Positions 51,001 through 57,000 of a DNA stretch of 64,000 nt are shown piece after piece. Positions within the stretch are counted from its first letter, which is position 1. Each line of letters opens with the position of its first letter. The stretch is from a bacterium (lineage in GTDB: Bacteria > Babelota > Babeliae > Babelales > RVW-14): positions 25,129 to 89,128 of the forward strand of contig JBDRBF010000008.1 of NCBI GenBank assembly GCA_043822925.1. Reading direction: 5' to 3'. A program made the position numbers.

Positions 51001-54000
51001 AAAACACCCATAATTTTGTCATAGGCCACTTTTCCATCAGGAATCAAATCATCTTTTTGAATCACACGAATTTCAAACTTCCCATTATCCATCTCACGCA
51101 CATCGCCACGATGTAATAAAATCTCGCCAAAACCGGTTCCCCACCTGGAAGAATCAAAAGCCCAAAGACATGTCCCATCAGAAAATTCATCGCCCGATAA
51201 ACTCTTGATATACAAAACATCCCCATCATCAATAGGCGTCCCATTAATTTTTATTAATCCCATAAACGCAAAATGCGCTTTTGATGTTTGAGTTTCAAGA
51301 AAACCTGGGTCTGAAACAACAATCTCACTAAAATTTGGATAAAGACGAGCTGGATAATGAACCCACAAAACGCGTGATTTCTCTTGAAAACCCGCTTCTG
51401 CCGCTATCCCATTTTTTCCAGCGCCAGAATAATACGATACTATTTTTATCTTATCACCATACAAAACATCCCCCATTTTTTTAGGGTCATCAACAGATTG
51501 AACAACAAATATTTGGTTACCACTTTTATCAAGCAAATTTGCCGGCAAATCCATCCCAACCAAAATTTCATGATGATTCTCTGGCGCTGCAACATACTTG
51601 TCTCTACTTACAGATCTCCCCTTACTCCAATCCCCAACATCAAGCGTTTTATTATTTTTAATATTTCGACTAGATGCATGCACCCATAAAGATTTATCAC
51701 TAAATTTTTTAGATTTAAACATAATCGGCACATTATATTTAACCGTCACTCCATAAACGTAACAATTACAAACAAAAACAACTATAAACACCGCACTACC
51801 AGTAAAAAAACTCTTCATAACTCTCATCTCACTTCTCCCTCTATAAAAGACATGTTAAAAAACTCTAAATAATACGCTTGACTCCATGCTCTTTAATTAC
51901 TTTAACAAGATATAATTTATAATCTATCCCCTTTTCCGATGGTTGATTCATCTAAGCCAAAACTACACCCGGGGGATTTCATCCTGTGCTCTTGGCCTTC
52001 GGCTCGTAGCTTCGTAAGACAAGCCCAAGAACAAATCGATAGGTAAAATTTTTAAATTAAGATCTAAAAAAAAGAATTGGGCTGATATTAAAAAAATATC
52101 AGCCCAATTATAATATTTTTTGATTTTTTAATATTACCCAATAACAGACTGCTTCTCTCGCTCATCAATAATCACCGAAGTCTCTGGAGCATTTATATTA
52201 ATATTTTGCACTGGCGCAATATCTTTTTTTGCATGATTCTGAAAACCTAATTGGACAATAATATCAATAAACTCCATAGGACGTATTCCAACTTCAGCCG
52301 CTTGATGAAATAAGCACGTTGCGGGCGTTAATGCAGGCAAAGAGTTTATTTCCAAAATAACAACTCGCTGTTTGCCCGTAGGACTCTCAAGAGCGCTTTG
52401 ATAAAAGCAATCAATACGAACGTAGCCTTTACAGTCAATCGTTTTGTATACGCCACCGATAGCATCCTGAACAAGAGAAATTTGTTCTTCACCAAGAGGC
52501 GCTGGCGTAATATTAGACCCAGCTCCTGGTAAAAACTTTTCTCTGATAGAAAGTACCCCTGCCTGTGCAACAGCCTGAGATGGCGGCAATACAGTAACAA
52601 TATCGTTACCGTAAGCGCCACAAGTTAGTTCCATACCAATAATAAGTTCTTCAAGCATAGCAACAGATTTTCCTGCATCAAATATCGCATTACATGCAGC
52701 AATAAGCTCCTGCGTATTCTGTACTTTTTGTACAAACATACTACAACCATCATCATGAGGTTTTACAACGAGCGGGAAGTTAAGAACCCCACTCAAACGC
52801 TCACTTAAATAAGCTTCTTGTTCTTGTTCTGTTTTTTTACTCAAAATAGATTTGGAAATAAGTATAGATTGTGGTACATCAAAGCCTTTAGCTCTCAAAA
52901 ACGTGTTTGTTTTGTTCTTATCCATACACAAAGCGCTGGCTAAAACCCCAGAGCCATTATATGGCAAACCAAGCATCTCAAGAGCCCCCTGAACCGCTCC
53001 ACCCTCACCTTTACCACCATGAAGAGCAATAAACACAAAATCATAATTTTTTGGCAAATCTGCCCACTCAAGAGCACTATCAGGTAATTCGGAAACAAGC
53101 TCTGCTATAATCCCTGTCGAATTTTTAATCAAATATTTTTGCGTAAGCTTAAATAATTTCATGTCGTGCTTAACAAATACTGGCGTAACATCATATTTTT
53201 CTGGTGATAATTTATAACAAACGTTACGTCCAGACTCAAGCGATATCTCACGTTCGTTTGTATCGCCACCAAGCAACACTGCTACGCGTATTTTTTTTAC
53301 GTCAGAACCATTCACACCCGACATACCAGCCCCACTCTCTTTTTTTCCAATTACTGTCGCCAGACCATAGCGCGCAAGTTCATGTTCAATCAAGAAATTA
53401 ATCAACTGTGTATGGCTCATGCCAACTTCTGCAGCTTGGTGAAACAAAAACGTTGCAGGCCCCATGCCTGTAAGTGAATTAGGATCAATAATAACAACTT
53501 CACCATCTTTGGTTAAAAAACCATCAGTCCGCGAAATAGTCGCTAACCCTAAAACTTTTGCAACCTGCTCACAAACATCAATAATTTTTGCCTGATCTTT
53601 TTTACTACAACGAGCAGGCGTAATCTTAAGCGCACGGCCCGGCATATATTTTTGATCATAATCATAGAACTCTGAATCAGATTCTTTTACAACTTCTGTA
53701 ATAGGAAAAGAAAACCATTCGTCTTGCCCCGTTCCCGTAACTGGATTATATGCATCTTGATGCTTTTGCAACGATACACATACAAACTCTAGACCATCGA
53801 CTTTTTCTTCAACAATTACATCCTGAACATAACTATTATCAGCTCTTGATGCTGCATGTATTGCAGACAAAAGATCAGTTGCATCATGTGAAACACTAAT
53901 GCCCAAACTTGAGCCCTCGTGTGCAGGTTTTACGATATAAGGGAAAGAAACGTTAACGGCACTTAAGCGTTCGATTACTTGCTGACTTGTTATATTTTGC

Positions 54001-57000
54001 ATTTCACTCGCTTTAACAACAACACCAGCAGGAACACGAATATTATGAACGTTAAGAACCTCTTTTTGAAAGGCTTTGTCCATCGCCAAAGCACTGCCCA
54101 AAACTTTAGCCCCCAAATAGGGGATCCCTAAAATTTCCAACATGCCCTGAAGCGTTCCATCTTCGCCATAACGTCCATGAACAGCTATATACACAAAATC
54201 GACTGCTTCTTTTAACGCATCCCATGTAAGCCGTTGCGCTTCACCATCTAAACGACTCTGAAAATCTGCAATTTTCCCCCGATGCAAAAAACGCCAAGGG
54301 AGTAAATATATTTGCCCATCTTCGTCTTGAAAAAGGGGGATAATGTCATACTTATTCGTATCCAGATGGTCACAGATTGTTCGCCCGGAATTTAGTGAAA
54401 CTTCACGTTCAATAGACCGTCCGCCCATTAACACACCAACTCTATATTTGTGCATTACATGCTTTGCGCTCACAAGACCCTCTCTAATTTTTTCTTAATT
54501 TTTTCTTAGTTGTCATCCCAGACTTGATCTGGGATCTAAGCCTAATTTCTTCTTAATTCGAACTATAAAGATCTTTTAAAGCACATACAATATCTTTACG
54601 AGAAAATATAGCTGAAGCAACCGCAACAATATCAACACCAGCCTCAGCTAACTGCGTAATATTATTATACCCAACGCCACCATCCATACAAATCAAAAAT
54701 GACAATCTTTGCAAATCTCGCATAGCGCACAATTGCTCGACTTTATGCATTACTTCAGGGATAAAAGCCTGCCCAGAAAACCCAGGTTCTACCGACATAA
54801 CCAAAACTTTATCAACTAATGGCACAATATCTTTTATCGCATCAACACTGGTTTTTGGATTAAGCGCTATTCCCACATTCATATCTTTTTCACGAACTTT
54901 TTCTATAATATCTTTTGCAGCAAGACTATCTTTCACAGACTCTATATGAAAAATAAACGTATCACGACTCGTTAGCTTAAGCCGATCTATCCAAAGAACG
55001 GGATTATCTACCATAAGATGCACCTGAACAGGCAAACCTGTAGTTGCAGCAATTGCATTTATAAATACTGGGCCCCAGGTCAAGTTAGGAACAAAATGAT
55101 CATCCATAACATCAAGATGATACCCATCACAATGCTCATCAAGCAACGTAATAGTATGCTTTAACTCAAGAACATTTGACGATATTAACGATGGATATAT
55201 TTTCATGCTCAATCTTTCTTATAACGTAATAATTTGGCCACATTTCACCGCAGTCTCAAAACCAGATAAAGAATTTGCATAAATATCAGACCGCACAGTA
55301 ACTTGACCTTTTTTGAAAAGCAATACAATCGTCGACCCACCACATGCAAAATACCCCGCTTCAGTCCCTTTTTCATACAGAATATCAGCTTTATAAGTTT
55401 CAACAATACGTCCAACAAACAAAGCCCCCACCGGAACCATTAGAATATCACCAAATGGCGTTTTTTTAAGCTCTATTATATGTCGCTCGTTTTCTATTAA
55501 CGACTGAACACCGGCTGCATATGCTACTGGGTTCACAGACTCATACTTTCCTGCAATAATACGGGCAGGAGCTGGCACACAAGAAACACAAAAATGAAAC
55601 CTATGGTAATCAGGAGGGGCCAATCTAAAAACCATACAGCAACCATCCTGATAACTTTGAGCTAATTGCTTACTCCCCAAAAAACGTTCCAAATTAAAAC
55701 GTTTATTTTTAACCAAAAACGTATCGTCTAAAGATAAATTACTAACGGCAAAAACTTTTGAATCTGCAGGAGCAACAACAACTTCTGGCCGCATATCGAT
55801 AGACCGAGCCCCTACTTTAAGTTTGCGCGTAAAAAAGTCGTTAAACGATTTATACTGGTCTATGGGCCGCTCAAAGTCTGACATGTTTATTTCATGCTTT
55901 TGCACAAATGCTTTTATATTTCTCGCGCTTAAACGTGAATCTTGATAAAACCCATAAAGCTTACTAAGCCAGCGACCCGTCAGAAAAAAACGTACTATCT
56001 TGCCAATACGACTAAAATACAAAAACTTAAGTAAAAAAAATGCCGGGACACGCTCATTAACAAGCGTGCCACCAGCAAAAAATCGAACGCTAAACGTTTT
56101 TTTTAAATTCTTATTCACTATCTTCATAACGTAACTGTACCATGCTTTACGCTATTTTTCACTATTAACAGCTACAAAACTCGCAACAATATTTCCAACA
56201 AAAGCACCCTGCATAGCAACTGCCGAATCTGCTGGCATTTGATCTACTACCGCCTGCGCATCTTGCGTAATATCGGCCACCAAATGCCCATAAACATAAT
56301 TTATAATCTCTGTTACCTGATTACTTAAGTACTCGCTAATATTCTCTTGAGTCATAATTTCTTGGATCAATTTCCAAATAACGGTCACAAGCGCAACAAT
56401 TACCTTAGTCGAATCTTTAGTCGAATCTTTAGATGAATTTTGTACCGTTACCATAGAATCAACAACTCCACGAGTCAAAAAGACATTATTTTGCACTGTT
56501 TGAGCTATATTTAAAGACGACCGTACTAAATCCGCAACGACATCTATATTTGCCTCAAGGCTTACACGTAATGCACAAAAAACAGTTTCAAGAAGATCTG
56601 ATGAAATTATCATATCACATGAACGTGTTTGTTTTTTTTGTCCCGTATCTTTTTCCCCAGTATTTACCGGTTCTTGCTGATCACCAGATACAACACCAAC
56701 AAAATCAAGAACAGCCGCAACCGCTTCTATCTTTTGTATTTGGTCTTCTTCTTTCGTCTTAGGCGATGAAACTGCCGCTTGGCCAACTTTATCTAAAACT
56801 TTTGCTAAACTACTAAAGAATTTCGCTTTATTAAACTTACGAGTACTCTCAACCTGATCTTGAGCACAAAAACAATCTCCAAAGCTATAACTTCCTATAA
56901 CTAATACCAGCCCACATGACAGTAAAACTTTGCCAAACAGGTGTTTCATACAACATCCTCTCCTTTAAAGAAACATTGCTCAACAGAACACTAATGACAA

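What a model noticed while it worked through the whole genome (the two positions that open the first line are those of the whole stretch)
52134..54473. Tandem Ddl-Ddl fusion with a Tyr-type and a Phe-type module
One 779-aa protein holds two complete D-Ala-D-Ala ligase modules. The first has the Lys-Tyr omega-loop pair of ordinary Ddl. The second has Lys-Phe at the aligned position, plus other fixed differences. The fusion and both signatures are conserved across the phylum. The two modules may therefore make different products, possibly a depsipeptide such as D-Ala-D-Lac. That last point is a hypothesis.
Evidence so far: Dala_Dala_lig_N and _C in 2 stretches each. N module best to DdlA chains, C module best to VanA/VanG chains. 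The modules are 35% identical. 97/101 genomes match and 91 give one near-full-length alignment. In 24 genomes: K-Y 24/24 in the N module, K-F 24/24 in the C module, GSS against GCS, D-x-N against E-x-N. No paper was found.
(Added by a program. Inside this text positions count along the whole contig: contig position 25,129 is position 1 of the stretch shown here. "Call 12" and the like, gene names such as g00115 and contig names such as C1 are that model's own, and its searches are not shown. The text may have been shortened before it was handed on; [...] marks where a part breaks off. The agent that wrote the report below was given it as the finding of a first reader that could run no searches.)

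Follow-up and report, generated by a model that had tools for sequence, protein, structure and literature searches.

The report
Fused two-module D-Ala-D-Ala ligase
This gene encodes two different D-alanine ligase units joined in one protein, a cell-wall enzyme design that also occurs in many other bacteria and in plant chloroplasts, so the fusion is not new but the fixed difference between its halves is untested.

Summary
Window 52134-54473 (- strand) is one 779-aa frame with two complete Ddl modules. The first has Ser/Lys-Tyr and D-x-N. The second has Cys/Lys-Phe and E-x-N. It is the only Ddl in this Dependentiae-type genome, and 191 of 201 genomes of the phylum have a match.

It is not special to the phylum. 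The same N-type then C-type fusion, with the same signatures, occurs in Bacteroidota (Cytophagales, including cultured strains where it is the only Ddl), in CPR bacteria and in a plant protein (Coffea). One paper already calls plant DDL a fusion of two DDL enzymes. In Syntrophales the two types are separate genes, usually neighbours in the order N then C. On a tree each type forms one clade, and the two clades are sisters.

Both modules keep all the ATP, Mg and catalytic residues I checked. The C module is at least as conserved as the N module, so neither looks dead.

Best reading: a covalent N/C pseudo-heterodimer that supplies D-Ala-D-Ala to MurF. In LAB Ddl and in E. coli DdlB Y216F, Phe at this position goes with depsipeptide synthesis. 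A second product therefore stays possible (about 0.2). Against it, moss, which has the tandem enzyme, makes a D-Ala-D-Ala pentapeptide and responds to vancomycin. No van-like context is present here.

This is a new member of a known kind.

The parts
52134..54473 (-). Whole tandem ddl gene: 779 codons plus the TAA stop at 52134-52136. GTG start at 54473; alternative ATG at 54455.
   Evidence: Whole-protein NCBIfam scores: NF002378 443.7 bits (cut-off 243), TIGR01205 434.4 bits (cut-off 245.65).
53343..54455 (-). N-type Ddl module, residues 7-377. It has E22, H99, K133, K182, S188, S189, E222, E229, K275, Y276, R315, D317, D330, N332, T341 and F342. These correspond to DdlB E15, H63, K97, K144, S150, S151, E180, E187, K215, Y216, R255, D257, E270, N272, S281 and L282.
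   Evidence: phmmer envelope against E. coli DdlA; residue map; Pfam.
53301..53342 (-). Linker, residues 378-391. It is predicted to be disordered.
   Evidence: pLDDT is below 50 for residues 378-388. In 130 D-type proteins the span from the N module's DdlB-300 equivalent to the C module's DdlB-5 equivalent is 25-42 residues.
52209..53300 (-). C-type Ddl module, residues 392-755. It has E407, H485, K519, K571, C577, S578, E608, E615, L641, K646, F647, R686, D688, E708, N710, T719 and C720.
53646..53651 (-). Codons for K275-Y276, the Lys-Tyr pair of the N module's omega loop.
52533..52538 (-). Codons for K646-F647, the Lys-Phe pair of the C module's omega loop.
52743..52745 (-). Codon for C577, a Cys at the place of DdlB Ser150 (the triad partner).
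   Evidence: Cys in 224 of 229 C-type modules.
53484..53486 (-). Codon for D330, an Asp at the place of the Mg ligand Glu270 of DdlB.
   Evidence: Asp in 227 of 229 N-type modules.
52137..52208 (-). C-terminal tail, residues 756-779. It has low confidence and is not conserved.
   Evidence: pLDDT is below 50 at 763-769 and 773-779. Ortholog alignments end near residues 748-760.
52075..52109 (.). 15-bp-stem hairpin with T runs on both sides, a terminator-like site 25 nt after the stop codon.

Best explanation
The gene encodes the cell's only D-alanine--D-alanine ligase. It is built as a covalent pseudo-heterodimer of two anciently diverged Ddl paralogs joined by a flexible linker. The N-type module comes first (Ser/Tyr triad, Asp at the Glu270 Mg site, Phe at 282). 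The C-type module follows (Cys/Phe in place of the Ser/Tyr triad partners, Glu at 270, Cys or Val at 282).

Each module is a full ATP-grasp enzyme with its own ATP, Mg and substrate sites. The dipeptide made goes to MurF for the peptidoglycan pentapeptide.

Shown here:
- the architecture;
- the conserved residues in both modules;
- that this is the sole Ddl locus in the genome;
- that MurF is present;
- family membership with the plant and Bacteroidota tandem proteins;
- that the two types also exist as separate neighbouring genes in Syntrophales.

Inferred:
- that the modules pack like a Ddl dimer;
- that both are active;
- that the product used is D-Ala-D-Ala.
For: Architecture and catalytic residues:
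- Two Ddl modules lie in one frame.
- Generic Ddl models pass their cut-offs for the whole protein.
- In 229 tandem proteins both modules keep E15, H63, E68, K97, K144, E187, K215, R255, D257 and N272 in at least 220 of 229. Most are kept in 228-229; K144 in the N modules is Lys in 221 and Arg in 8.
- The C module is as conserved as the N module. Mean pairwise identity, N against C, is 0.563/0.582, 0.427/0.441 and 0.400/0.404 in the three groups.

Genome context:
- The own genome has no other Ddl.
- It has MurF at 346.7 bits, over the cut-off of 288.6.

Family:
- In three cultured Cytophagales genomes the tandem gene is the only strong Ddl match.
- The Coffea protein P0259 has the same signatures.
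- Plant DDL is described as a fusion of two DDLs (PMC9954125). A review lists it as a characterised D-Ala-D-Ala ligase of moss and Arabidopsis (PMC7432710).
- A Ddl-Ddl-MurF triple fusion exists (P0264).
- Tree: N-type forms one clade (SH-aLRT 90), C-type one clade (97), and the two together one clade (95).
- In Syntrophales, 30 of 31 genomes with a C-type gene also have a second match at 41-48% identity. All 16 second matches that I fetched are N-type by motif. In all 14 loci that hold both, N lies upstream of C on the same strand.

Structure:
- The AlphaFold2 model of the whole chain has pLDDT 89.9 and pTM 0.87, with only the linker and the two ends at low confidence.
- Its best fold matches are Ddl chains.
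Against: - No activity was measured for this protein or for any bacterial tandem form.
- Taken alone, each module scores just under the TIGR01205 cut-off (232.9 and 204.4 bits against 245.65).
- The C module lacks two of the three residues of the E15-S150-Y216 triad. Loss of the Tyr alone changes product choice in DdlB and in Lactobacillus Ddl (PMC3378904). 'Ordinary D-Ala-D-Ala ligase' may therefore be wrong for that module.
- No alanine racemase domain was found in this genome (92% complete) or in the 6 other genomes of its family that were searched. The source of D-Ala is open.
- pTM is only an indirect sign of how the modules pack. I could not compare the model with a solved Ddl dimer.
- The plant enzymology (Hirano 2016) was not readable here.
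Confidence: 0.72

Rival explanations
1. Dual-product enzyme. The N-type site makes D-Ala-D-Ala. The C-type site has lost the Ser and Tyr hydroxyls of the triad and has a different residue at 282. It joins D-Ala to another nucleophile, such as D-lactate, D-serine or glycine. One protein would then feed MurF two kinds of termini.
For: - F at the Tyr216 position in 228 of 229 C-type modules, C at Ser150 in 224 of 229, and C or V at Leu282 in 215 of 229.
- The published rule that Phe against Tyr decides depsipeptide against dipeptide synthesis (PMC3378904 and PMC8807649).
- The difference has been kept across Dependentiae, Bacteroidota, CPR, plants and the unfused Syntrophales pairs. That argues for two non-redundant roles.
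- A review notes D-Ala dipeptides with other amino acids in plants, whose enzymes are unknown (PMC7432710).
- The genome has a D-2-hydroxyacid dehydrogenase.
Against: - Moss precursors end in Ala-Ala, and vancomycin acts on moss chloroplast division (PMC9434261).
- No Van model reaches its cut-off: VanA 210.5 bits against 775, and the D-Ala-D-Lac equivalog 269 against 550.
- The C module keeps Lys215, which VanA lacks.
- No vanH, vanX or regulator lies beside the gene.
- The dehydrogenase is unassignable: best hit glyoxylate reductase at 204 bits (cut-off 455), VanH at 193 (cut-off 540).
- The VanX-like protein is DdpX-like, below its cut-off, and by eye carries an N-terminal signal or membrane segment. 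It would not clear cytoplasmic D-Ala-D-Ala.
- Y216F DdlB still makes D-Ala-D-Ala (recalled, not from a call).
Confidence: 0.2
2. One module is a non-catalytic partner, regulatory or structural, that only stabilises or controls the other, as in pseudo-enzyme pairs.
For: - Each module departs from canonical Ddl at a functional position. The N module has the Mg ligand E270 changed to D and P275 to T or S. The C module has S150 changed to C and Y216 to F.
- In Bacteroidota the gene is linked or fused to PASTA sensor domains, which hints at regulation.
Against: - All the ATP, Mg and catalytic residues I checked are kept in both modules in at least 220 of 229 proteins.
- E to D keeps a carboxylate.
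- The C module is slightly more conserved than the N module.
- The tree reported no unusually long end branches.
Confidence: 0.08
3. Artefact: two neighbouring ddl genes joined by an assembly or frame error in this draft genome.
For: The genome is a draft of 86 contigs. In Syntrophales the two types really are separate neighbouring genes.
Against: - The same single open frame appears in most of the 191 matching genomes, including single-contig ones.
- It also appears in 229 proteins from independent sources.
- There are no stops inside the frame.
Confidence: 0.01

Closest known systems
Plant chloroplast DDL (Physcomitrium PpDDL, Arabidopsis AtDDL; here the Coffea eugenioides protein XP_027176337.1 = P0259)
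   Same: - Two Ddl modules in one chain, in the same order.
- The same signatures: N module GSS / K-Y / D-x-N, C module GCS / K-F / E-x-N.
- Both of its modules fall in the same N-type and C-type clades.
- Role in peptidoglycan precursor supply (PMC9954125, PMC9434261).
   Different: - The plant protein has an N-terminal transit-peptide-like extension and longer inserts in the C module.
- It groups with the CPR-like branch, not with the Dependentiae branch.
- Identity to the window protein is about 34%.
Tandem Ddl of Bacteroidota (Cytophagales: Pontibacter, Adhaeribacter, Marivirga, Flexithrix and others), annotated simply as D-alanine--D-alanine ligase
   Same: - The same N-type then C-type fusion and signatures.
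- It is the only strong Ddl match in the 4 cultured genomes scanned with PF07478, 3 of them also with TIGR01205.
   Different: - About 900 aa, with an insert of about 100 residues in the N module.
- Followed by a PASTA-domain protein or fused to one.
- 36-42% identical to the window protein.
Unfused ddlN-ddlC gene pairs of Syntrophales
   Same: - The same two active-site types (rows SynN and SynC).
- They branch at the base of the N-type and C-type clades.
- The gene order N then C is the same as the order in the fusion.
   Different: Two separate proteins of about 355-380 aa. In 9 of 30 genomes the two genes are not within about 2 kb of each other on one contig.
Canonical single-module Ddl (E. 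coli DdlA and DdlB)
   Same: - The ATP-grasp fold.
- All catalytic residues.
- The N module keeps the E-S-Y triad.
   Different: - Canonical Ddl is one module that forms homodimers (recalled, not from a call).
- It has E at 270 and L or M at 282.
- Identity to the modules is 28-36%.
Depsipeptide-forming Ddl of lactic acid bacteria (Leuconostoc LmDdl2, Lactobacillus Ddl) and VanA-type ligases
   Same: The C module has Phe where these LAB enzymes have Phe (L. reuteri F258; PMC3378904).
   Different: - The LAB enzymes keep the Ser (triad F258-E17-S186), whereas the C module has Cys.
- VanA has E-V in place of K-Y or K-F at 215-216 and sits with vanH and vanX.
- No such context exists here, and the Van models score far below their cut-offs.

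Membership tests
[quoted passage not shown] | Dala_Dala_lig_N followed by the Dala_Dala_lig_C ATP-grasp domain | tested here: met
   Both domains are present in 2 stretches each. Fold matches to Ddl chains have TM 0.8-0.92 normalised to the target.
[quoted passage not shown] | Score over the curated cut-off of the NCBIfam Ddl models | tested here: met
   Whole protein: NF002378 443.7 bits against 243, TIGR01205 434.4 against 245.65. Each module alone is just under the cut-off: 232.9 and 204.4 bits.
[quoted passage not shown] | ATP, Mg and catalytic residues in DdlB numbering: E15, K97, K144, E180, E187, K215, R255, D257, E270, N272, S281. The list is recalled from the DdlB literature, not taken from a call. 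| tested here: met
   All are present in both modules. The only changes are E270 to D and S281 to T in the N module and S281 to T in the C module.
[quoted passage not shown] | Hydrogen-bonded triad E15-S150-Y216 (PMC3378904) | tested here: inconclusive
   The N module has it (E22, S188, Y276). The C module does not (E407, C577, F647).
[quoted passage not shown] | ATP-dependent synthesis of D-Ala-D-Ala | not testable with these tools
   No assay was possible. It is inferred from the gene being the sole Ddl locus and from the presence of MurF.
Tandem (plant-type) DDL: N-type and C-type Ddl fused | Two Ddl modules in one chain, N-type first and C-type second, with the family's signatures | tested here: met
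   The window protein shares the S/Y/D and C/F/E pattern that holds in at least 224 of 229 tandem proteins, the Coffea protein among them.
Tandem (plant-type) DDL: N-type and C-type Ddl fused | Each module falls in the matching clade on a tree | tested here: met
   N-type is one side of a branch (SH-aLRT 90) and C-type is one side of a branch (97). The tree has 79 rows, only 8 canonical outgroup rows, and came from a quick search.
VanA/B/D/M-type D-Ala-D-Lac ligases | Score over the Van-specific NCBIfam cut-offs | tested here: not met
   VanA 210.5 bits against 775, VanB 202.5 against 750, the D_ala_D_lac equivalog 269 against 550, VanG 343.3 against 495.
VanA/B/D/M-type D-Ala-D-Lac ligases | Operon with vanH (D-lactate dehydrogenase) and vanX (dipeptidase) | tested here: not met
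   The neighbours are rpe, psd, aspS and two unassigned genes. The 2-Hacid_dh and the VanX-like gene lie on other contigs.
LAB-type depsipeptide Ddl (Phe at the Tyr216 position) | Phe at the position of DdlB Tyr216 | tested here: met
   F647 in the C module; Phe in 228 of 229 C-type modules.
LAB-type depsipeptide Ddl (Phe at the Tyr216 position) | Synthesis of D-Ala-D-Lac, and a source of D-lactate | tested here: inconclusive
   The product cannot be tested here. The only strong 2-hydroxyacid dehydrogenase passes no NCBIfam cut-off.

The most novel reading that the evidence does not exclude
N-type and C-type Ddl are an ancient, obligatory pair. They are encoded side by side in Syntrophales and fused in Dependentiae, Bacteroidota, CPR and plants. 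Their two active sites have different jobs. The Ser/Tyr site makes D-Ala-D-Ala. The Cys/Phe site joins D-Ala to another nucleophile, a hydroxy acid such as D-lactate or another D-amino acid or glycine. A large part of the bacterial world and plant chloroplasts would then build or tune stem-peptide termini with a two-product ligase that has been annotated as plain Ddl.
Probability: 0.2. Interest if true: 0.75.

Novelty: new member of a known kind. Interest (0 to 1): 0.5.

Why it matters
Ddl is a textbook drug target (D-cycloserine), and its product is the target of vancomycin. The tandem form has been noted in plants only as 'two putative DDL enzymes'.

This work shows three things about it:
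- It is one wide family across very distant lineages.
- Its halves are two fixed active-site types.
- The halves also exist as a separate gene pair.

That gives plant peptidoglycan work and bacterial cell-wall enzymology a concrete, cheap experiment: knock out one site at a time and ask what each makes. If both make D-Ala-D-Ala, the family is simply a fused heterodimer, and the Phe rule for depsipeptide synthesis does not transfer to it. If not, stem-peptide chemistry in Bacteroidota, CPR, Dependentiae and chloroplasts needs a new look.

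Tried and rejected
Literature:
- Searches for Dependentiae plus D-alanine ligase found nothing.
- A loose search returned only unrelated papers and was wasted.
- Phrase searches for tandem, fused, duplicated or two Ddl domains found only the plant paper PMC9954125.
- Sato and Takano 2017, Hirano 2016 and Machida 2006 are not held. What they say about the two halves or about enzyme activity is therefore unseen and could bear on novelty.

It ran after the stated wait.

Checks that gave little:
- Cluster look-ups gave no names for most bacterial representatives.
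- My first rule for splitting modules kept only 130 of 273 proteins. I replaced it with one that split 229.
- The idea that the C module is specifically Van-like was dropped, because its hits to Van and Ddl structures are equal.
- The idea that genomes without the tandem gene lack peptidoglycan was dropped. G079 and G111 have MurF over the cut-off but no Ddl domain.
- The roughly 280-aa ORF between ddlN and ddlC in some Syntrophales has no Pfam family. It is not like the ORF upstream of the unlinked N-type gene.

Not run:
- Complex prediction. A pass for two Ddl-like chains would come from likeness to solved homodimers and would not tell heterodimer from homodimer.
- I did not recount the VanX-like gene across the phylum.

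Full report
**1. What is there**

Window 52134-54473 on the - strand is a single open frame of 779 codons that starts with GTG. A Shine-Dalgarno-like AGAGAGGG lies 4 nt before the GTG. Orthologs begin at codon 7, an ATG at 54455, so either start is possible.

A 15-bp-stem hairpin with T runs follows the stop codon at 52075-52109. Upstream on the same strand lie rpe, psd, an unassigned gene and aspS. Downstream lie two unassigned genes. There are no van genes and no division or cell-wall cluster.

Pfam finds Dala_Dala_lig_N and Dala_Dala_lig_C twice each. The generic NCBIfam Ddl models pass their cut-offs for the whole protein: NF002378 at 443.7 bits against 243, and TIGR01205 at 434.4 against 245.65. 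No Van-specific model does: VanA 210.5 against 775, VanG 343.3 against 495.

**2. The two modules**

I fetched E. coli ddlB and ddlA from the annotated K-12 record. I fetched vanA from an annotated Enterococcus plasmid. I aligned the modules to these references.

- The N module (residues 7-377) has E22, K133, K182, S188, K275, Y276, R315, D317, D330, N332 and F342. These sit at DdlB positions 15, 97, 144, 150, 215, 216, 255, 257, 270, 272 and 282.
- The C module (residues 392-755) has E407, K519, K571, C577, K646, F647, R686, D688, E708, N710 and C720 at the same positions.

The modules are 34% identical to each other. They are 28-36% identical to DdlA, DdlB and VanA.

The C module's best solved-structure hits mix Van and Ddl enzymes with equal scores. 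It is 27% identical to VanA and 30.5% to DdlB. I see no special kinship with Van ligases.

**3. In the genome and the phylum**

The genome is 1.52 Mb in 86 contigs and 92% complete. It has no other Ddl locus, and it has MurF over its cut-off.

Source names of close homologs say Dependentiae, Babeliales or TM6.

Of 201 sampled genomes of the phylum, 191 have a match. Of the 177 high-quality genomes, 173 do. Nearly all matches are one open frame of 730-880 aa. All 30 fetched loci carry GSS/KY plus GCS/KF, and 29 of 30 carry D-x-N in the N module.

**4. It is not special to the phylum**

A full HMMER scan of 1.84 billion representatives found many more tandem proteins at 31-42% identity.

- One set, about 840-930 aa with an insert in the N module, maps to Bacteroidota. 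These are mostly Cytophagales and include cultured Pontibacter, Adhaeribacter, Hymenobacter, Marivirga and Flexithrix. Of 600 pattern matches, 543 were confirmed and 80 loci were kept.
- A second set, about 780-830 aa, maps to CPR bacteria (Nomurabacteria, Paceibacterota, Berkelbacteria, Peribacteria, Saccharibacteria) and to a few MAGs labelled otherwise (13 loci).
- P0259, 956 aa with a transit-peptide-like start, is a Coffea eugenioides protein.

[quoted passage not shown] The fusion as such is therefore in print for plants. I found nothing on bacterial tandem forms or on the difference between the halves. Three key papers were not readable.

**5. The asymmetry is family-wide**

I split 229 tandem proteins into modules. 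The three groups are defined by module length: 130 Dependentiae-like, 40 Bacteroidota-like and 59 CPR- or plant-like. One length-defined row fell in another clade on the tree. I tabulated the DdlB positions for each module.

| DdlB position | N modules (of 229) | C modules (of 229) |
|---|---|---|
| 150 | S 229 | C 224 |
| 210 | mixed F and Y | L 228 |
| 216 | Y 229 | F 228 |
| 270 | D 227 | E 229 |
| 281 | mixed S and T | T 226 |
| 282 | F 214 | C 147, V 68 |

Both modules keep E15, H63, E68, K97, K144, E187, K215, R255, D257 and N272 in at least 220 of 229 proteins. Seven canonical single-module Ddls have S, Y, E and L or M at positions 150, 216, 270 and 282; for one of them position 282 fell in an alignment gap. 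They are DdlA, DdlB and five loci from other phyla.

The C module is slightly more conserved than the N module in all three groups. Neither half looks like a decaying copy.

**6. The two types also live apart**

Single-module C-type genes occur in Syntrophales and in a few other MAGs.

In a sample of 41 genomes of that order, 31 have a C-type gene at 65% identity or more. Of these, 30 also have a second match at 41-48% identity. I fetched 16 of those places. All 16 second genes are N-type by motif. In the 14 loci that hold both, N lies upstream of C on the same strand. The two genes either abut or are separated by one ORF of about 280 aa that has no Pfam family. In one complete genome the two are unlinked.

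On a tree of 79 modules, N-type forms one clade (SH-aLRT 90) and C-type forms one clade (97). Together they form a clade (95) next to DdlA- and VanA-like enzymes. The unfused forms branch at the base of each type. This tree came from a quick search with only 8 canonical outgroup rows.

The simplest history is one old duplication, then divergence into two types that stay together, then fusion.

**7. How it most likely works**

Ddl enzymes are dimers (recalled, not from a call). A fused N/C pair would be a covalent pseudo-heterodimer.

The AlphaFold2 model of the whole chain has pLDDT 89.9 and pTM 0.87. Only the linker (378-388) and the two ends have low confidence. That fits a fixed packing of the two modules, though I could not compare it with a solved dimer. 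Fold matches are Ddl chains.

Three observations point to D-Ala-D-Ala for MurF as the product that matters:
- It is the only Ddl here and in cultured Cytophagales: 4 genomes scanned with PF07478, 3 of them also with TIGR01205.
- Some relatives are fused to MurF (P0264).

**8. The open point**

Tyr against Phe at this position is the published switch between dipeptide and depsipeptide synthesis in DdlB Y216F and in Lactobacillus Ddl (PMC3378904 and PMC8807649). The C type has also lost the Ser of the triad and differs at position 282.

A fixed difference kept in such distant lineages, and kept as a gene pair where the two are not fused, suggests two jobs. I put it at about 0.2.

The evidence against it:
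- the moss data (PMC9434261);
- the lack of any Van-like context;
- a 2-hydroxyacid dehydrogenase that cannot be assigned to D-lactate;
- a VanX-like protein that is DdpX-like and looks exported.

**9. Verdict**

The protein is a new member of a known kind, the tandem DDL family. It is not a feature of one phylum.

What seems unreported is the family-wide N-type and C-type asymmetry and the unfused gene pair. Both are directly testable.

Noticed in passing
L085:5732-6565 (+); P0135 residues about 1016-1077: In Pontibacter the tandem ddl is followed 26 nt later by a protein with three PASTA repeats. In other Bacteroidota-type proteins (P0135, 1244 aa) a PASTA domain is fused to the C-terminus after a hydrophobic segment. 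[quoted passage not shown]
   Followed up: partly
P0264 (1262 aa), P0189 (987 aa): Other fusions of the tandem unit exist. P0264 is Ddl-Ddl-MurF, with Mur_ligase_M and Mur_ligase_C after the two Ddl modules. P0189 has a GNAT acetyltransferase domain in front of the two modules.
   Followed up: partly
whole genome G000 and its family f1: No alanine racemase domain (PF01168) was found in this genome or in the 6 other genomes of its family that were searched. By contrast, 72 of 101 genomes of the phylum have one. The source of D-Ala in this family is open.
   Followed up: partly
G079 (one contig, 95% complete) and G111: Two genomes of the phylum have MurF over its cut-off but no Ddl domain at E<=1e-5. 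They may import the dipeptide or make it another way.
   Followed up: partly
L218:1399-2238 (-), L216:1402-2241 (-), L223:1762-2613 (+): In some Syntrophales an ORF of about 280 aa with no Pfam family sits between the N-type and C-type ddl genes on the same strand.
   Followed up: partly
window 49687-50664 (-) and 50829-51827 (-): Two genes downstream of ddl have no Pfam family. One is a Pro/Gln/Val-rich, Lys-rich protein with a hydrophobic N-terminus. The other is a 332-aa protein with a signal-like start.
   Followed up: no
L037:1360-2100 (+) = G000 contig C81: The genome's VanX-like gene is closest to the DdpX-type D-Ala-D-Ala dipeptidase model, at 158 bits against a cut-off of 176. By eye it has an N-terminal hydrophobic segment, so it may act outside the cytoplasm.
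   Followed up: partly
G206:C1:1144466-1146456: The complete Syntrophales genome also has two neighbouring 330-aa frames with weaker Ddl-like matches, 126 and 99 bits. They are of unknown role.
   Followed up: no
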